From a virus (Duplodnaviria > Heunggongvirae > Uroviricota > Caudoviricetes): a stretch of DNA of 4,566 nucleotides. The DNA lies in the IMG/VR virus record IMGVR_UViG_2875713109_000002. The stretch is one strand, 5' to 3'. Numbering within the stretch: position 1 is the stretch's first letter; each line of letters opens with the position of its first letter. Positions 1 through 4,566 of this stretch are shown here, piece after piece. Made by a program: the position numbers and the translations under genes. The notes beneath the pieces were generated by a model. That model was not told the DNA's origin. It saw only the letters and a list, made by a program, of their open reading frames with translations, and did not search any database.

Positions 1-60
1 AAATGAGGAAATTGGCCTGAAACAGGGCCAAAATCAGCCACGAAGAGACGATTTTGGGCT

Positions 61-76
61 GAAAATTGGAAAATTG
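61..76. repeat. Perfect tandem 8-mer GAAAATTG x2, with a related copy GAAATTGG at 8-15
   Basis: Read directly: GAAAATTG at 61-68 and again at 69-76. The surrounding segments 11-50 and 53-91 are an imperfect direct repeat (TTGGcCTGAAA... / TTGGgCTGAAA...; ...AGCCAC in both). Significance unknown. Confidence 0.3.
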
Positions 77-162
77 AGCCACAGGACGTCGATAAAGGAC
101 GGTTTGGGGCGTCATATCGGGAGCTGCGGACCACTTAATCGCAACTTCCCTAGAAGATACTT

Positions 163-188
163 ACACATTTTTCCTCTGAAAACTGTGT
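163..188. promoter_or_regulatory. Imperfect 10-bp inverted repeat upstream of the ATPase promoter (possible operator)
   Basis: ACACATTTTT (163-172) and AAAACTGTGT (179-188) are 9/10 complementary, with a 6-nt spacer. A second short palindrome, ACTGAA-TT-TTCAGT (248-261), abuts the TG of the extended -10. Confidence 0.2.
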
Positions 189-197
189 GTTACGTCA

Positions 198-270
198 TTG
201 ATGGATTGTGTTGGAATGGCTAATAATTTGGGTGATGTCATAGTTTTACTGAATTTTCAGTGATATAAAT
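198..270 (+). promoter_or_regulatory. Candidate sigma70 promoter region for the ATPase gene
   Basis: Two candidates read by eye: TTGATG (198-203), 18-nt spacer, AATAAT (222-227); and an extended -10, TGATATAAA (261-269). Both sit in the AT-rich leader upstream of the RBS AAGGA (326-330) and the ATG at 334/337. Not experimentally supported. Confidence 0.3.
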
Positions 271-333
271 CATGTAAAAATAAGGTGTTCTACGTAAGGT
301 TATTTTTCTATACACAGCTAGCATAAAGGATTA

Positions 334-1782
334 ATGATGTTTATTAAAAAACTGAAGATAGAAAATTTTAAAGGGTATCACGGGGAAGATAATGAGTTGG
401 AATTCAATATCCCTGATGGAGAAACGGAAGGTAGTGGACTTAATATATTTGTGGGTGAAAACAACGCCGGAAAATCCACTGTATTTGAAATTATAGATTT
501 TATAAAGGATGGAACCAAAAAGAACATTGAGGATCTTATATGCAAATCAGATCCGGCTAATATTGCTGAGAAGCTTTCAGCCGAGCTAACCTTCACTGGA
601 AACTTATCAGAAGTAATTGCCGCTCATGTACAAGCTAATAAAGTTGCAGCATTCACCTCGCATGTTTTTGAGGACGAGGGTGTTAATTATTTCAGAGTGA
701 AGAGGTGTAGTGAGGTAGGGGAGAAGAAAATATTATTTTGGAACGGAAATGAATTTGTTAACCCAAGTGGTATAGATGCCCCATTTAAGAAGTTTTATGA
801 TAATAACTTCATTTGGGCTGATACAAACCCAAGCAATGAAGCAAAGTTTGGCTCTACAACTATATGTGGTTCGCTTCTAAAAGAAATTGCTTTAGGCCAT
901 ATTGAAACGGATGAGTATAGAGCGTTTTCTGAGCAATACCATCGCGTATTCAATCACCCTGAATCAGAGTTGAGACAGAAAATATCATTAGTCGAAAATC
1001 AAGTTAGAGAGGTTTTCTCATCTCAATTTGGTATGGCAGATATTTCTTTCATTTTTGAAGAGTTGCAGGTAGAGAATTTCTTCAAAACTATTTCCATCAT
1101 GATTGATGATGGGGTGAATGTCCCAATGGGAGAAAAGGGGCATGGTATGCAAAGGGCACTAGCCCTATCATTACTTCAGGTGTACGCTGAGATAACGTGT
1201 AATGCGCATGGTGCGGGGATTAGTAAACCATTTTATCTTTTCATTGACGAACCTGAAATATGTCTTCATCCTTCAGGGCAGCAAAAGCTTTTAGAAGCTT
1301 TAATGATTATCTCCAAAAGTAGACAGGTTTTTGTTACAACGCACTCTCCTTTCCTTTTGTCCTCCCCTTACCTTAAAAATATCGGTCTGTTTGTTTTCAA
1401 AAAAGAGAATAATAAAAATGTTGTGGAAAGGGCTGATACTTCTCCATGGTTCCCTTGGTCTCCATCGTGGGTCGAGATTAATTTCAAAGCATACAATTTA
1501 GCAACCGTTGAATTGCATAATGAATTATATGGTTATTTGCAGGAGAAAAACTCCTGTCCAAGCGAAAAAACAATGGAGCAATGGCTAAATTCAAAGGGAA
1601 TTGCGTTTGATAAAGTATGGGTTAAAGAATTTAAAGGTGCGGCACAACCGCCAGCGGATACTACATTACAAACATTCATCCGTAATCATATACACCACCC
1701 AGAGAATGTTACAATGCAATCTCATCGCTATACACAACAAGAATTACTAACTTCAATCCAACAAATGGTTGGGCTTCTATAA
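334..1782 (+). CDS. ABC-type ATPase (AAA_15/AAA_21-like, OLD/GajA/PtuA/AriA clade) with uncharacterised C-terminal domain carrying a HEPN-like R-N-x3-H motif; candidate anti-phage defence protein
   Basis: 482-codon ORF with RBS AAGGA at 326-330 and tandem ATGs at 334 and 337; the second has the better spacing. Walker A GENNAGKST (aa 41-49, nt 454-480). Signature-like GEKGHGMQ (aa 266-273). Walker B FYLFIDEPE followed by LHP (aa 300-313, nt ~1231-1272). H-loop VFVTTHSP (aa 332-339). No Toprim-like E / DxD motifs after the ATPase core. C-terminal ~140 aa contain R450-N-H-I-H-H455 (nt 1681-1698). Codon usage is strongly AT-rich, unlike the neighbouring genes. Ends 7 nt before a terminator hairpin. 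Confidence 0.85.
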   Translation: MMFIKKLKIENFKGYHGEDNELEFNIPDGETEGSGLNIFVGENNAGKSTVFEIIDFIKDGTKKNIEDLICKSDPANIAEKLSAELTFTGNLSEVIAAHVQANKVAAFTSHVFEDEGVNYFRVKRCSEVGEKKILFWNGNEFVNPSGIDAPFKKFYDNNFIWADTNPSNEAKFGSTTICGSLLKEIALGHIETDEYRAFSEQYHRVFNHPESELRQKISLVENQVREVFSSQFGMADISFIFEELQVENFFKTISIMIDDGVNVPMGEKGHGMQRALALSLLQVYAEITCNAHGAGISKPFYLFIDEPEICLHPSGQQKLLEALMIISKSRQVFVTTHSPFLLSSPYLKNIGLFVFKKENNKNVVERADTSPWFPWSPSWVEINFKAYNLATVELHNELYGYLQEKNSCPSEKTMEQWLNSKGIAFDKVWVKEFKGAAQPPADTTLQTFIRNHIHHPENVTMQSHRYTQQELLTSIQQMVGLL

Positions 1783-1784
1783 AG

Positions 1785-1814
1785 AAAAAGGCGAGCCGTT
1801 TGGCTCGCCTTTTA
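1785..1814. terminator. Bidirectional rho-independent terminator shared by the convergent genes
   Basis: Perfect 8-bp GC-rich stem GGCGAGCC (1790-1797) / GGCTCGCC (1802-1809) with loop GTTT. Flanked by AAAAA (1785-1789) on the left and TTTT (1810-1813) on the right, so each strand's transcript ends in a U-run. It lies 7 nt after the ATPase stop and 8 nt after the stop of the minus-strand ORF. Confidence 0.7.
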
Positions 1815-1817
1815 ATA

Positions 1818-2009
1818 TTAATTTAATAACTTGCGCTTTTTAGATAATAGTACGCTTAAAGCATATTCAAATCCGTGTTGCGCCTCTAGACGGCATAGGG
1901 TGATATTACAGATCCCCAACTCCTTACACAGCGCCTTTCGATTAATTACTTCCGCCGCGCCTGATACATAGACTTGACCAGCGCCGGGGATATTGATTGA
2001 AACTTTCAT
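1818..2009 (-). CDS. Small helix-turn-helix protein (63 aa), possibly a truncated or remodelled phage gene
   Basis: ATG at 2009 preceded by GAGGT with about 6-nt spacing. The segment KALCKELGICNITLCRLEAQ fits a classic helix-turn-helix pattern (E-L-G-I-x3-T-L-x-R-L), resembling AlpA/excisionase-like or small-terminase N-terminal DNA-binding domains. The last ~15 codons fall in AT-rich DNA, whereas the 5' two-thirds have host-like GC. Confidence 0.5.
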   Translation of the reverse strand: MKVSINIPGAGQVYVSGAAEVINRKALCKELGICNITLCRLEAQHGFEYALSVLLSKKRKLLN

Positions 2010-2101
2010 GTGTTACCTCAGTGTAAAAGTAAAAATGAATATAACCGGAAGAGATAATCCCCAGCCGATACCCAAAGGGCGCGACCGGGGGGCATTTTGC
2101 A

Positions 2102-3121
2102 TTACTTCAGCTTGACGTTCAGCGTGTAGTTCGGGCGCAGGTTCAGAGGGATGAAGCTCGCCTCCTGGTGAATGGTCACCATGCCGTAACGGTCAGTCAT
2201 TACTTTCTGGTAGAACGGGCTGATCTCGCCTTTCGCGGCGATGTCCTGATTACGGGAAGCCGGGCCGTGTACCAGTTTGAACGGGTTACGGTCAGCGCCG
2301 TTAAACTTAGGAACGAACAGGCCGGAACCTTCTTCGATTTCGTAGCGGTCATCGTCCGCCAGAATGAAAGTAATGTTGCCAATGCTGAAGGAGTCATAAC
2401 CCGCAGTGTTAACCGGGATCAGAGCGCCTTTTGCAGCTTCCGCCACTTTGTTGGTAATAAGGCTGGTTACTTCCGGGTGGCTCGCCAGTACGTCATACAG
2501 ATCCGGGGAGCAGAAGCAGAAGAAGCGGTCCAGATAGGAGCGGCTCGTGCCGTACTCTTTAACCAACATGCGGCGAATCTTCGCAAGCTGTGCATACACG
2601 TTAGCGCCTGCTGAACCGTCCAGGTTGAAACTCAGCGGATCGGCACCCATCGCCGCGCGAAAGTCGATATCACCGTCGTCAGTCTTAGCCGCTTTCGCTT
2701 CCTGTTTGAACAGGGCGCGGGCCAGCGTACTTTCAACCGTTTCCAGGTGATGGTTACGCATACGGATAGCTTTAGACGCGATCACTTCAGAAATAGCCGC
2801 AACCTGATCCGGGTTAGCCGGGCTGATCAGACCTTGCCAATCAGCGGTTTTTACGTCCGCTTCGGTGGCGTAGTGTGGGAGCTCCTGGTCACGCAACAGA
2901 GGCTTATCCATTTTGATGGAGTTAACTTCGGTGCCGTAGCGGGCTACCTGTTCCAGTTCAGAGACTTGAGTCTCTACGATGTCCAGAACTTGAGCGTTTG
3001 GAGTGGTGGAGTTAACACCGGAGAAGATACCCAGATCAGAGATCAGGTAATTACCCGCTGGCACTTGTTTAAGTGCCGCTACGGTGTCCAGCTTTTCAAA
3101 CTGTTTAAAATCAATAGCCAT
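2102..3121 (-). CDS. Phage major capsid protein, probably lambda gpE-like family
   Basis: 339-aa ORF. On the minus strand the upstream gene's TAA stop is followed by AAGGAAA and then ATG at 3121, a tight operon junction. Size matches gpE (~340 aa). The C-terminal stretch (TIHQEASFIPLNLRPNYTLNVKL) resembles the gpE C-terminus as I recall it. GC-rich codon usage. Family assignment is from memory, not a search. Confidence 0.6.
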   Translation of the reverse strand: MAIDFKQFEKLDTVAALKQVPAGNYLISDLGIFSGVNSTTPNAQVLDIVETQVSELEQVARYGTEVNSIKMDKPLLRDQELPHYATEADVKTADWQGLISPANPDQVAAISEVIASKAIRMRNHHLETVESTLARALFKQEAKAAKTDDGDIDFRAAMGADPLSFNLDGSAGANVYAQLAKIRRMLVKEYGTSRSYLDRFFCFCSPDLYDVLASHPEVTSLITNKVAEAAKGALIPVNTAGYDSFSIGNITFILADDDRYEIEEGSGLFVPKFNGADRNPFKLVHGPASRNQDIAAKGEISPFYQKVMTDRYGMVTIHQEASFIPLNLRPNYTLNVKLK

Positions 3122-3133
3122 TGTGTGATTTCC

Positions 3134-3241
3134 TTATGCTTTGAAGTAATCGGCGTTGATAGCCAGGCGAATATCACCGGAGGCTGTCAGCGCTTCCAGT
3201 GCGGCTTTTTTGCTCGCGGCGTCTTTAGCACGTAGGGCAAA
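3134..3241 (-). pseudogene. 3' remnant of the head gene preceding the capsid gene (scaffold or decoration protein C-terminus), truncated at a breakpoint
   Basis: The last ~35 codons of minus ORF 3134..3616 (FALRAKDAASKKAALEALTASGDIRLAINADYFKA) look protein-like and end in TAA just before the capsid RBS. Everything upstream in that frame is Cys/Ser/Arg-rich junk lying antisense to a well-formed + strand protein, and no ATG is present in the plausible part. Confidence 0.45.
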
Positions 3242-4385
3242 ATCGGTAACCAACCTTACAGAAAAGGATCTGTTTGACCTGATGCAACAAGGGAAGCTGT
3301 TCTCTAAGGACATCCTCCCGGAAGTGGCGAAACAGATGAAAGCCGCAGCTCGTAACGGCGGCGCTCTGGATAAGGCTATGAAGTCCAACCGGGCAAGTTG
3401 GCAGCGCCTGCAAACCAGTATGCAGAACGCTATGAATATCTTCTTTACTTCTGGCTTTGGTAACTCACTAACCAGCGCTTTCGACGCTATCAGCGCCGCT
3501 GTTAACGGCTCTGGTGGGGCCTTTGAGATGTTCGGGCATATCGCCGGGAAAATCGTTGAGGGTGCCACAGATGCGTTTACAGAGTTGCACGACACTGTGA
3601 TCCTGACCTTCCGCATTATTGAGTATTACGCCGCTAAGATGGGGATCACTGGTGAGCAGCTTAAATCCTGGGGAGAAATGGCAGCATACGCCGCCGGGGT
3701 GGCTCTGTTCGCTGGCTCTATCTGGAAGTTGGGCGGGGCCTTTAAATGGTTGTTGACCATGCTCAACCCGCTAACCAAATTGCTGGGGGTCATGAAAGGG
3801 ATCGCCGCTATTGGTGGCATTGAATCCGCTACAACTGGCGGATCTGGTGGGGAAGGTAAAGACAAGCCAAACAAACCGGGCCGGGGTCCGAAAGTTGGCA
3901 AGGTAGGCGGCGCGGCGGCTCTCTCTGGCGGTCCTGTTGGCTGGGGCATTGCGATCGGTTCGGTAGGTGGGGATTATGCCTGGGATAAAGTCATGGACGC
4001 TAACGACGCCATGTATGGACAGGACACCACCGCCGGAGGCAATCTGAAGAAAGATAGCCCGCTGGGTAAACTGTGGGATTTCATCCACAGCCCAGACCTT
4101 CCGACTAATCCAGACTTTGCCAAACCAACAGATAAAACAGGGTGGGTAAGCTCTTACTCCAATCCGGGTTATGTTCCTCCTGCGCCGACGATTACAGCGC
4201 CACAGCTTAAAGTTGATATGGCAGGTAATCCACTGATGACGCCGCCAGCGTGGCTAAACCAGCCGCTTAACGTGAACGTCAATGTGAAAGTGCAGGATGG
4301 GCAGGTTAGGGATCTGGTCCGCTCTGAAGTTGAGACCAACAACCAGCAGGCTTTCAACATGCTGATGCAGGGCGGGCCGAACTAA
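3156..4385 (+). CDS. Phage tail tape-measure-like protein, C-terminal fragment (N-terminally truncated; plausible coding from about 3243)
   Basis: 409-codon ORF. From about codon 30 the sequence is protein-like, with long hydrophobic Ala/Gly-rich segments (AAYAAGVALFAGSIWKLGGAFKWLL, LLGVMKGIAAIGGI) and a Gly-rich linker (TTGGSGGEGKDKPNKPGRGPKVGKVGG) typical of tape-measure proteins. The first ~28 codons (MIARRISPEAVSASS...) have antisense-type composition and overlap the head-gene remnant. No convincing RBS for the internal ATG at 3282. At ~380 aa it is much shorter than typical tape-measure proteins. Confidence 0.5.
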   Translation: MIARRISPEAVSASSAAFLLAASLARRAKSVTNLTEKDLFDLMQQGKLFSKDILPEVAKQMKAAARNGGALDKAMKSNRASWQRLQTSMQNAMNIFFTSGFGNSLTSAFDAISAAVNGSGGAFEMFGHIAGKIVEGATDAFTELHDTVILTFRIIEYYAAKMGITGEQLKSWGEMAAYAAGVALFAGSIWKLGGAFKWLLTMLNPLTKLLGVMKGIAAIGGIESATTGGSGGEGKDKPNKPGRGPKVGKVGGAAALSGGPVGWGIAIGSVGGDYAWDKVMDANDAMYGQDTTAGGNLKKDSPLGKLWDFIHSPDLPTNPDFAKPTDKTGWVSSYSNPGYVPPAPTITAPQLKVDMAGNPLMTPPAWLNQPLNVNVNVKVQDGQVRDLVRSEVETNNQQAFNMLMQGGPN

Positions 4386-4466
4386 CCGCCCATACAAAAA
4401 AGGCTCCCCTAGTGGGATAATGCCGATCAGTTAAGGATCAGTTGACCGATCCAGTGGCTGTGTAAG

Positions 4467-4501
4467 AATCCGGAAACGCTCACTCGTTTCCGGATTTTTT
4501 T
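4467..4501 (+). terminator. Strong rho-independent terminator after the tape-measure-like ORF
   Basis: Perfect 12-bp stem AATCCGGAAACG (4467-4478) / CGTTTCCGGATT (4485-4496) with loop CTCACT, running into a T-run through 4501. The opposite strand has no T-run, so it acts on the + strand only. Confidence 0.8.
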
Positions 4502-4566
4502 ATGCACATTGGACAGGCCCTTGATTTGGTATCCCGTTACGATTCTCTGCGTAACCCACTGACTTC

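What the first reader, a model, noticed from the sequence alone, without database searches (positions are those of the whole stretch)
180..1860. AT-rich single-gene cassette embedded in a GC-rich phage morphogenesis region
From about 180 to 1860 the DNA is visibly AT-rich, with codons dominated by AAA/ATT/TTT/GAA, and by eye roughly one-third G+C. The flanking phage genes (2.0-4.4 kb) use GC-rich codons and are a little over half G+C. The cassette has its own promoter-like sequences, its own RBS and a terminator immediately after the stop, so it is a self-contained unit typical of a horizontally acquired moron or defence cargo in a prophage. The 3' end of the neighbouring 63-aa ORF also runs into the AT-rich DNA, suggesting the insertion remodelled that gene.
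Basis: partly seen in the sequence, partly recalled or inferred. Interest (0 to 1): 0.7.

Follow-up and report, generated by a model that had tools for sequence, protein, structure and literature searches.

The report
Defence-type ATPase–RNase gene in an island's cargo slot
The AT-rich stretch is a real, horizontally acquired single-gene cassette for a predicted phage-defence protein (an ATPase fused to a probable RNase domain), sitting in a swappable cargo slot just after the integrase of a decayed mobile element in E. coli; this is an ordinary arrangement for such genes.

Summary
Window 147-1809 is 37% G+C (third codon positions 33%), against 52-54% for the capsid and tape-measure genes.

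Related E. coli islands place the swappable segment at about 203-1786. Other strains carry different AT-rich cargo there: GmrSD, HNH, AIPR or unknown genes. The gene is in only 10 of 5,426 complete E. coli genomes.

It encodes a 481/482-aa protein. Residues 1-365 are an OLD/ABC-type ATPase. The Toprim nuclease of OLD is replaced by a 115-aa helical domain with an invariant R-N-x3-H motif and weak fold matches to HEPN RNases.

This fits the 'ERFG_01251' ABC-HEPN family predicted by Anantharaman et al. in 2013. Homologues sit alone in the P2 old/tin hotspot, in defence islands, and inside type I-C cas operons of Neisseria and Kingella.

The most likely function is an ATPase-gated abortive-infection RNase. 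No activity has been tested.

- The carrier is a 13-15 kb satellite-like element in the thiM TPP riboswitch, here decayed by ISEc68, IS4 and a 6-kb deletion.
- The terminator belongs to the conserved backbone junction.
- The 63-aa ORF is not remodelled.
- A private promoter is not demonstrated.

The parts
1..150 (+). End of ISEc68 (IS5-like), inserted in the 3' end of the island's integrase gene. This is not part of the cassette. The ORF 74-223 is an IS/integrase chimera.
   Evidence: 100% match to ISEc68 copies in 33 genomes. Window 1-146 has no match in the intact integrase of PSS-07.
147..223 (+). Last 25 codons and stop codon of the 452-aa tyrosine integrase, including the catalytic-Tyr region RRYLH.
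   Evidence: Identical to the PSS-07 integrase 3' end.
203..1786 (+). Variable cargo slot as defined by homology. In strain XJ34 it is replaced by 2,223 bp at 32.7% G+C carrying three unknown genes.
   Evidence: Homology between L001 and L003 stops at window ~202 and resumes at 1787. In strain H8 the cassette travels as 152-1809 at 95% identity.
224..333 (+). AT-rich (28% G+C) upstream region with an extended -10-like TGATATAAA (261-269) and the RBS AAGGA (326-330).
   Evidence: Read directly from the sequence. 98-99% conserved among three cassette variants whose coding regions are about 95% identical. The promoter scan shows no enrichment, so a promoter is inferred only.
334..1782 (+). ABC-HEPN gene (482 aa). 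The true start is probably the ATG at 337 (481 aa), because homologues begin MFIK.
   Evidence: ORF list. Pfam AAA_15 3.3e-30 and AAA_21 8.2e-19. PADLOC Old model 7.6e-46, covering only positions 1-352 of 578. Family alignment.
454..480 (+). Walker A / P-loop, G41-E-N-N-A-G-K47-S48-T.
   Evidence: G41, N43, N44, G46, K47 and S48 are invariant in 34 homologues.
1237..1251 (+). Walker B, L-F-I-D305-E306. The H-loop T-T-H337-S-P follows further downstream.
   Evidence: I304, D305, E306, P307, E308, H337, S338 and P339 are invariant.
1465..1779 (+). C-terminal helical domain (aa ~378-482), predicted to be a HEPN-type RNase.
1681..1698 (+). R450-N-H-I-H-H455, an Rx4H (RNxxxH) motif within the invariant block RNHIHHPEN.
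   Evidence: R450, H452, H454, H455, P456, E457 and N458 are invariant in 34 homologues. The motif is defined in PMC3710099.
1786..1813 (.). Bidirectional intrinsic-terminator hairpin between the convergent ABC-HEPN and 63-aa genes. It marks the right junction of the slot.
   Evidence: 12-bp stem on both strands. -21.5 kcal/mol, z = -5.85. Present in the cassette-less XJ34 and, as a variant, in H8.
1818..2009 (-). Conserved 63-aa backbone ORF of unknown function, downstream of the capsid gene.
   Evidence: Same length and 57 of 63 residues identical in XJ34, which lacks the cassette; the last four residues differ. 61 of 63 identical in SCU-316. No family hits.
2102..3121 (-). Major capsid protein (lambda E-type), part of the backbone.
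   Evidence: Pfam Phage_cap_E 5.8e-15. phrog_29.
3134..3252 (-). 3' remnant of a head-decoration (lambda D-like) gene, cut by the internal deletion. The junction shows 5-bp microhomology at 3248-3252.
   Evidence: Window 147-3252 and 3248-4417 map to L018 12001-15106 and 21098-22267, so 5,991 bp are missing. The full gene is L018 14988-15359, with a weak PF02924 hit.
3253..4385 (+). C-terminal part of a tape-measure protein (about aa 334-711 of the intact 711-aa protein). The ORF 3156-4385 is therefore chimeric.
   Evidence: phrog_5255 1.8e-55, matching profile positions 432-800 of 800. Intact gene in L018.
4414..4566 (+). Left end of IS4.

Best explanation
Window 334/337-1782 encodes a stand-alone ABC-HEPN protein. 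It has an OLD-like ABC ATPase in which the usual Toprim nuclease is replaced by a small HEPN-type domain carrying an invariant RNxxxH motif.

The gene is exchangeable, AT-rich cargo. It occupies the slot immediately downstream of the integrase of a small integrative element inserted in the thiM TPP riboswitch.

Proposed mechanism, inferred by analogy with PrrC/RloC and P2 OLD: the ATPase oligomer holds the HEPN domains apart or occluded. A phage-derived cue changes the nucleotide or oligomer state. Two HEPN domains then pair their Rx4H motifs into an active metal-independent RNase. tRNA or mRNA is cleaved, translation stops and the infection aborts.

What is shown: the compositional anomaly, the slot boundaries, the variable occupancy, the rarity of the gene, the domain architecture, the conserved motifs, the absence of a conserved partner gene, and the defence-type neighbourhoods of homologues.

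What is inferred: anti-phage function, RNase activity, the RNA target, the trigger and the gating mechanism.
For: Composition and boundaries:
-.

Variable slot:
- Six different cargo sets follow related integrases at the same rcnR-thiM site.
- All cargo is more AT-rich (33-43% G+C) than the structural genes (52-53%).

Rarity and transfer:
- The gene is in 10 of 5,426 complete E. coli genomes.
- Its 90%-identity cluster spans E. coli, Enterobacter, Citrobacter, Klebsiella, Pantoea and Atlantibacter.

ATPase domain:
- Pfam AAA_15 and AAA_21.
- The best PADLOC model is Old, covering the ATPase part only.
- P2 Old is 26% identical over aa 39-349.
- Foldseek of the full model hits SMC/Rad50 heads, PtuA, GajA, retron ATPases and OLD at E ~1e-12 to 1e-14.
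- The Walker A, Walker B and H-loop residues are invariant.

C-terminal domain:
- Confident model, pLDDT 89.
- R450-x4-H455 is invariant.
- The domain is always C-terminal to this ATPase: all ten checked of the best 150 among 809 representative proteins.

Context of homologues, none with a conserved partner gene:
- Between the P2 gpA and portal genes, the old/tin hotspot, in Serratia (hotspot as described in PMC9519451).
- Between cas3 and cas5 of type I-C operons in Kingella and Neisseria.
- In a defence island in Dickeya with DUF4238, HEPN_RiboL-PSP and a second AAA_15 protein.
- Next to methylases, an HNH protein and a UvrD helicase in Shewanella.

Literature:
- PMC3710099 describes an 'ERFG_01251' family of ABC ATPase fused to a classical HEPN with the Rx4-6H motif conserved.
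- It notes members embedded in CRISPR-Cas neighbourhoods in Neisseria and Kingella, and proposes a suicidal back-up RNase role.
- ABC ATPases gate HEPN tRNases in PrrC and RloC, and P2 OLD has been reported to be an abortive tRNase.
Against: - No experiment on any member was found. Searches for the family name returned only the 2013 paper.
- Foldseek against the PDB gave nothing, best E 0.22.
- Pfam and PDB sequence profiles gave nothing for the C-terminal domain.
- PADLOC has no dedicated model for the family.
- I could not retrieve the ERFG_01251 sequence to prove identity.
- The window's copy has V380 where at least 90% of the family has G.
- The carrier element is decayed, so expression in this strain is uncertain.
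- The alternative cargo in XJ34 has no recognisable defence domain.
Confidence: 0.68

Rival explanations
1. The gene is an addiction or stabilisation module. The HEPN toxin is restrained in cis by the ATPase and serves mainly to keep the island in the chromosome, or to act in inter-element competition. It would not be an anti-phage system.
Against: There is no separate antitoxin gene. The gene is absent from most related islands, which persist without it. Homologues sit in dedicated defence hotspots such as the P2 old/tin slot and cas operons.
Confidence: 0.1
2. The C-terminal domain is not a nuclease. It is a helical DNA- or protein-binding module, so the protein is an ATPase sensor or clamp that needs an effector encoded elsewhere, or that acts on DNA (an SMC/RecF-like role).
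Against: The R-N-x3-H motif plus PEN is invariant across Gammaproteobacteria, Neisseriaceae and Acinetobacter, which is more typical of a catalytic site than of a binding surface. No partner gene is conserved in seven contexts. Independent profile analysis in PMC3710099 classed the family as a classical HEPN.
Confidence: 0.12
3. The gene is a functional part of the carrier element's own life cycle, for example helper-phage interference or packaging by a satellite, rather than exchangeable cargo.
For: It lies directly after the integrase. In strain SCU-316 it has diverged in step with the backbone: 94.7% identity for the gene against 93% overall.
Against: It is replaced by unrelated genes in related elements. 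Its composition differs from the backbone. Homologues occur in unrelated contexts without this element.
Confidence: 0.04
4. The gene is a CRISPR-ancillary effector whose real function depends on a type I-C system. The E. coli copy would then be an orphan.
For: Homologues with 56-57% identity lie between cas3 and cas5 in two genera with different flanking genes. PMC3710099 noted this and compared the role to that of CARF-HEPN proteins.
Against: Most contexts examined have no cas genes: E. coli, Dickeya, Shewanella, Aeromonas, Acinetobacter and Serratia. Defence genes are known to embed in other immune operons without functional coupling (bioRxiv 10.1101/2024.01.29.577857).
Confidence: 0.05

Closest known systems
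ERFG_01251 family of ABC-HEPN proteins (Anantharaman, Makarova, Burroughs, Koonin & Aravind 2013, PMC3710099)
   Same: N-terminal ABC ATPase with a C-terminal classical (MNT-type) HEPN and a conserved Rx4-6H motif. The prototype is from E. coli. Members are embedded in CRISPR-Cas neighbourhoods in Neisseria and Kingella, which is what I found independently.
   Different: Nothing detectable. I could not fetch the prototype sequence to confirm identity. The family is a computational prediction with no tested member.
P2 Old (class 1 OLD nuclease)
   Same: It is the best-scoring ATPase relative: PADLOC Old 7.6e-46, and 26% identity over the ATPase. It is a single-gene, mobile-element-borne abortive system. 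A Serratia homologue occupies the P2 old/tin slot itself. OLD has been reported to be an ATPase-gated tRNase.
   Different: There is no Toprim domain. The last ~115 aa are a helical HEPN-like domain instead. The match covers only positions 1-352 of the 578-position Old model.
PrrC and RloC anticodon nucleases
   Same: The same logic and domain order: an ABC ATPase regulator followed by a C-terminal HEPN RNase in one polypeptide.
   Different: The ATPase lineage differs, with no Pfam AAA_13 hit. The HEPN subtype differs, classical rather than PrrC/RloC-type. There is no type Ic restriction-modification linkage, no coiled-coil or zinc hook, and the target is unknown.
PARIS (AriA/AriB), Gabija (GajA/GajB) and Septu (PtuA/PtuB)
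   Same: Related AAA_15/AAA_21 ABC ATPases. All are carried in hotspots of mobile elements.
   Different: Those are two-gene systems with Toprim, helicase or HNH partners. Here the effector is fused and no partner is conserved.
Integrase-adjacent defence hotspots of P4-like satellites and 'integrase-only' defence islands (PMC9122126, PMC10121019)
   Same: AT-rich, exchangeable defence cargo on a small integrative element, with diverse systems at the same position in different strains.
   Different: The integrase family and attachment site differ: the thiM TPP riboswitch rather than a tRNA gene. The backbone carries capsid, decoration and tape-measure genes and is not P4-like.

Membership tests
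OLD family nucleases | N-terminal ABC ATPase of the OLD/AAA_15 type | tested here: met
   PADLOC Old 7.6e-46 over aa 1-365. Pfam AAA_15 3.3e-30. tblastn to P2 old 3e-14.
OLD family nucleases | C-terminal Toprim nuclease domain | tested here: not met
   No Toprim or DUF4435 hit in Pfam or PADLOC. The Old model is matched only to position 352 of 578. The C-terminus is an all-helical ~115-aa domain.
HEPN superfamily | Conserved Rx4-6H motif with a polar residue after the R | tested here: met
   R450-N451-H-I-H-H455. R450 and H455 are invariant and N451 is conserved in at least 90% of 34 homologues from several orders.
HEPN superfamily | Helical-bundle fold similar to solved HEPN domains | tested here: inconclusive
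HEPN superfamily | Match to a curated HEPN sequence model | tested here: not met
   No Pfam family at E < 0.06 for the C-terminal 112 aa. The PDB profile search found nothing.
HEPN superfamily | Metal-independent endoribonuclease activity | not testable with these tools
   Needs biochemistry.
ERFG_01251 ABC-HEPN family (PMC3710099) | ABC ATPase fused to a C-terminal classical HEPN, with members inside CRISPR-Cas loci of Neisseria and Kingella | tested here: met
   Architecture. Homologues P0075 (Neisseria animaloris) and P0109 (Kingella oralis) lie between cas3 and cas5d. Description in the paper.
ERFG_01251 ABC-HEPN family (PMC3710099) | Sequence homology to the prototype gi 422781011 | not testable with these tools
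The supplement search was empty.
PrrC/RloC anticodon nucleases | PrrC/RloC-type ABC NTPase (Pfam AAA_13) | tested here: not met
   AAA_13 is absent from the Pfam hits at E <= 0.1.
PrrC/RloC anticodon nucleases | Embedding in a type Ic hsd restriction-modification locus (PrrC) | tested here: not met
   No hsd genes in the island.
PARIS / Gabija / Septu | Obligatory adjacent partner gene (AriB DUF4435, GajB helicase or PtuB HNH) | tested here: not met
   The neighbours are the integrase and the backbone 63-aa ORF. No partner is conserved across seven homologue contexts.
Mobile-element defence-hotspot cargo (moron-like) | Presence/absence polymorphism with alternative cargo at the same backbone position | tested here: met
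Mobile-element defence-hotspot cargo (moron-like) | Autonomous transcription unit with its own promoter and terminator | tested here: inconclusive
   The terminator is strong but shared with the backbone. Promoter-like sites are not above chance, and only a conserved extended -10-like element is seen.
Anti-phage defence system | Protection against phage infection | not testable with these tools
   No experimental report was found.

The most novel reading that the evidence does not exclude
The most novel readings that the evidence does not exclude are these.
(a) The ABC-HEPN protein senses DNA-processing intermediates of the kind made by Cas3 or RecBCD. That would explain both its recurrent embedding between cas3 and cas5 and its OLD-like ATPase. 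It would then act as a portable second-line RNase that can plug into CRISPR or work alone.
(b) Its carrier is an undescribed family of phage satellites. These would carry only integrase, a replication initiator, capsid, decoration and tape-measure genes. They would integrate inside the thiM TPP riboswitch, placing the integrase behind the native thiamine-controlled leader.
Probability: 0.15. Interest if true: 0.6.

Novelty: new member of a known kind. Interest (0 to 1): 0.33.

Why it matters
If confirmed, this would be another ABC-ATPase-gated nuclease system. It pairs an OLD-type sensor with a HEPN RNase in a single ~480-aa protein. It is absent from current defence-finder models: PADLOC has no dedicated model for it. 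It spreads between enterobacterial genera and recurs in the P2 old/tin hotspot and in type I-C cas operons.

It is a cheap, well-defined candidate for experimental validation, because it is one gene with clear catalytic residues to mutate. The rcnR-thiM slot is also a small reservoir of further candidates, for example the three unknown AT-rich genes of strain XJ34.

Conceptually it adds little. Both the family (predicted in 2013) and the hotspot principle are already established.

Tried and rejected
- Foldseek of the C-terminal model against the PDB gave no significant hit.
- The afdb50 library was unavailable.
- A profile of the C-terminal domain against PDB sequences found nothing.
- Pfam on the C-terminal 112 aa found nothing.
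- NCBIfam gave only sub-threshold ATPase hits.
- The profile search of 1.8 billion representatives found 809 relatives. All ten that I checked were fusions to the same ATPase or fragments of such fusions. So there is no bridge to stand-alone HEPN toxins and no alternative architecture.
- PADLOC and Pfam on the three XJ34 cargo proteins gave no hits, so 'the slot always holds defence genes' cannot be claimed.
- The promoter scan showed no enrichment.
- Rfam found nothing in the window.
- The phage database holds no close relative of the gene or the window beyond the IS4 end.
- Literature and supplement searches for ERFG_01251/ABC-HEPN returned only the 2013 paper and no sequence.
- A search for a published description of TPP-riboswitch integration found nothing relevant.
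- I rejected the ORF 74-223 as a gene because it is an IS/integrase chimera.
- I rejected the ORF 3156-4385 as an intact gene because it spans a deletion junction.
- I rejected 'intact prophage' as the description of the surroundings.
Full report
**1. Observation**

The compositional anomaly is real.
- In 200-nt windows G+C is 0.30-0.44 between 200 and 1900, and 0.47-0.60 between 2100 and 4400.
- The block 147-1809 is 37.3% G+C, and the 224-333 intergenic region is 28%.
- The ATPase ORF is 37.5% with GC3 33%. The capsid gene is 53% with GC3 62%, and the tape-measure fragment is 54% with GC3 59%.
- A two-breakpoint likelihood fit places the changes at 150 and 2045. The contrast between 203-1786 and 1787-4395 gives p = 2e-22.
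- The AT-rich block is 37% rather than one third G+C. By composition it extends about 200 nt further right than stated, covering the 63-aa ORF.

**2. Where the window comes from**

The window is E. coli chromosome, from an island between rcnR and thiM.
- Only window 147-4566 matches the best record, strain PSS-07.
- Window 1-146/150 is the end of an ISEc68 (IS5-like) element. It has inserted 77 nt before the stop codon of a 452-aa tyrosine integrase.
- The right end of the window, from about 4414, is IS4.
- Strains 90-1 and SCU-316 hold more complete elements. Comparison shows that the window also carries a 5,991-bp internal deletion. It fuses the 3' part of a lambda-D-like decoration gene to the middle of the tape-measure gene, with 5-bp microhomology at 3248-3252.
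- The ORFs 74-223 and 3156-4385 are therefore chimeras.

The intact element is 13-15 kb and is organised as follows:
- attL, integrase, then the cargo slot;
- on the minus strand, the 63-aa ORF, the capsid E gene and the decoration-like gene;
- an ORF-poor gap of about 2 kb;
- six small genes, including an O-like replication initiator, followed by a 711-aa tape-measure protein;
- a small tyrosine recombinase, then attR.

The attachment site lies inside the thiM TPP riboswitch aptamer. 'Phage morphogenesis region of a prophage' is therefore only loosely right. The carrier is a small, satellite-like element, and here it is a decayed one.

**3. Boundaries and variability of the cassette**

- Against strain XJ34, which has the same island but no ATPase gene, homology runs through the integrase to window ~202 and resumes at 1787.
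- In between, XJ34 has 2,223 bp at 32.7% G+C with three unknown genes.
- In strain H8 the cassette (152-1809, 95% identity) is followed by different DNA.
- Related integrases (80-87% identity) at the same site are followed by other cargo. ATCC 8739 has a GmrSD-domain protein. Strain 503440 has an HNH endonuclease. ECZP248 has HNH, several unknown genes and an AIPR protein. AREA_C483 has unknown genes and an OB-fold protein.
- All of this cargo is 33-43% G+C.
- The ATPase gene occurs in 10 of 5,426 complete E. coli genomes, whereas related integrases occur in 173.
- Its 90%-identity protein cluster spans six enterobacterial genera.

**4.

- The hairpin at 1786-1813 has a 12-bp stem, folds at -21.5 kcal/mol with z = -5.85, and scores as a terminator on both strands. 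It is present in the cassette-less XJ34 backbone and, as a variant, in H8. It is the slot's right junction and a shared bidirectional terminator for two convergent genes. It does not belong to the cassette alone.
- The 63-aa ORF lies wholly in conserved backbone. It is 63 aa with or without the cassette, and only its last four residues differ. It was not remodelled.
- Sigma-70-like hexamer pairs are not enriched. An extended -10-like TGATATAAA (261-269) and the whole 110-nt upstream region are nearly invariant among cassette variants. A promoter is plausible but unproven, and read-through from the integrase gene is possible.
- The likely start codon is the ATG at 337, because homologues begin MFIK and are 481 aa.

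**5. The protein**

ATPase domain (residues 1-365):
- It is an ABC-type ATPase of the OLD/AAA_15/AAA_21 group.
- The best PADLOC model is Old, but the match covers only profile positions 1-352 of 578.
- P2 Old is 26% identical over the ATPase.
- The full model (pLDDT 77) matches SMC/Rad50 heads, PtuA, GajA, retron ATPases and OLD.
- The Walker A, Walker B and H-loop residues are invariant.

C-terminal domain (last ~115 residues):
- It has no Pfam match, but it models confidently (pLDDT 89).
- It is helical and contains the invariant block R450-N-H-I-H-H455-P-E-N, an RNxxxH form of the HEPN Rx4-6H motif.
- Foldseek and sequence profiles find nothing.
- The HEPN assignment therefore rests on the motif, a weak fold signal and the literature.

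**6. Family and context**

- The family is about 480 aa long and conserved end to end in Gammaproteobacteria, Neisseriaceae and Acinetobacter.
- A profile of the C-terminal domain finds 809 representative proteins. The domain is always C-terminal, and in all ten that I checked it is fused to the same ATPase type.
- No partner gene is conserved across the contexts examined:
  - Serratia: between P2 gpA and portal fragments, the classical old/tin hotspot.
  - Kingella oralis and Neisseria animaloris: between cas3 and cas5d of type I-C operons with different flanks.
  - Dickeya: a defence island with DUF4238, HEPN_RiboL-PSP and another AAA_15 protein.
  - Shewanella: next to UvrD, an HNH protein and two methylases.
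  - Aeromonas and Acinetobacter: small insertions among housekeeping genes.
- Anantharaman et al. 2013 (PMC3710099) describe exactly this. Their 'ERFG_01251' family, with an E. coli prototype, fuses an ABC ATPase to a classical HEPN with a conserved Rx4-6H motif. Members are sporadically embedded in CRISPR-Cas neighbourhoods 'e.g. in Neisseria and Kingella', and the authors proposed a suicidal back-up RNase role.
- I could not obtain the prototype sequence. No later or experimental work on the family turned up.

**7. Mechanism**

The most likely mechanism is an ATPase-gated abortive-infection RNase. This is inferred from PrrC and RloC, where an ABC NTPase restrains a C-terminal HEPN anticodon nuclease. 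It also draws on P2 OLD, recently reported to be an ABC-gated tRNase that is activated by dissociation of its tetramer. The steps would be:
- the ABC oligomer keeps the HEPN domains inactive;
- a phage cue alters the ATP or oligomer state;
- paired HEPN domains form the composite Rx4H site;
- RNA cleavage stops translation.

None of these steps has been shown. The rivals are an addiction module, a non-catalytic C-terminal domain, a core function in the element's life cycle, and a CRISPR-dependent ancillary role. Each is less likely, for the reasons given under the rival explanations.

**8. Verdict**

It is wrong on the 63-aa gene, on who owns the terminator, and on the nature and state of the surrounding element.
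- The gene belongs to an already catalogued but untested ABC-HEPN family, and the hotspot arrangement is a known pattern.
- Interest is modest. It is a clean candidate for validation and not a surprise.

Noticed in passing
window 1-150: The end of an ISEc68 (IS5-like) element is inserted in the integrase gene 77 nt before its stop codon. The ORF 74-223 is an IS/integrase chimera. In strain 90-1 the same integrase is hit independently by IS911.
   Followed up: yes
window 3134-3252 and 3248-4417: There is a 5,991-bp deletion relative to strain 90-1 (L018 15107-21097), with 5-bp microhomology at the junction. It fuses the 3' end of a decoration-like gene to the middle of the tape-measure gene, so the 409-aa ORF 3156-4385 is chimeric.
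   Followed up: yes
L001 13556-13652 and 22665-22762 (outside the window): The island integrates inside the thiM TPP riboswitch aptamer. The attL copy scores 53.3 bits to RF00059, with its 3' P1 strand replaced, and lies 67 nt upstream of the integrase start on the same strand. The attR copy scores 75 bits and precedes thiM. The integrase may therefore sit behind the native thiamine-responsive leader. No published description was found.
   Followed up: partly
L018 9467-24320; L019 7719-19790: The intact carrier element is 13-15 kb. It has an integrase, the cargo slot, a lambda D/E-like decoration and capsid pair, an ORF-poor gap of about 2 kb, an O-like replication initiator, a 711-aa tape-measure protein and a small tyrosine recombinase. 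No portal, terminase or other tail genes were seen. It may be an undescribed phage-satellite family.
   Followed up: partly
window 1471-1473 (codon 380): The window's protein has Val at position 380, in SPSW-V-EI, where at least 90% of homologues have Gly, including the SCU-316 allele. The effect on function is unknown.
   Followed up: no
window 334-339: There are two in-frame ATG codons. Homologues start MFIK and are mostly 481 aa, and the AAGGA RBS is better spaced for the ATG at 337. The annotated 482-aa start is therefore probably one codon too long.
   Followed up: partly
L007, L008, L009, L012 and L013 at about 8001-9450: Homologues with 56-57% identity lie between cas3 and cas5d of type I-C CRISPR-Cas operons in Kingella oralis and Neisseria animaloris, with different chromosomal flanks. 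This was already noted in PMC3710099.
   Followed up: partly
L021 and L022 5765-9831: A Serratia marcescens homologue (63% identity) sits between truncated P2 gpA and portal genes. This is the P2 old/tin defence hotspot of a P2-like remnant.
   Followed up: partly
L003 12929-14772: The alternative cargo in strain XJ34 is three genes (244, 108 and 216 aa) at 33% G+C with no Pfam or PADLOC hits. They may be an uncharacterised system occupying the same slot.
   Followed up: partly
window 1818-2009 (- strand): The 63-aa ORF downstream of the capsid gene is conserved: 57 to 61 of 63 residues are identical across island variants that are 89-93% identical in DNA. It has no family match and is unannotated in several RefSeq records.
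   Followed up: partly
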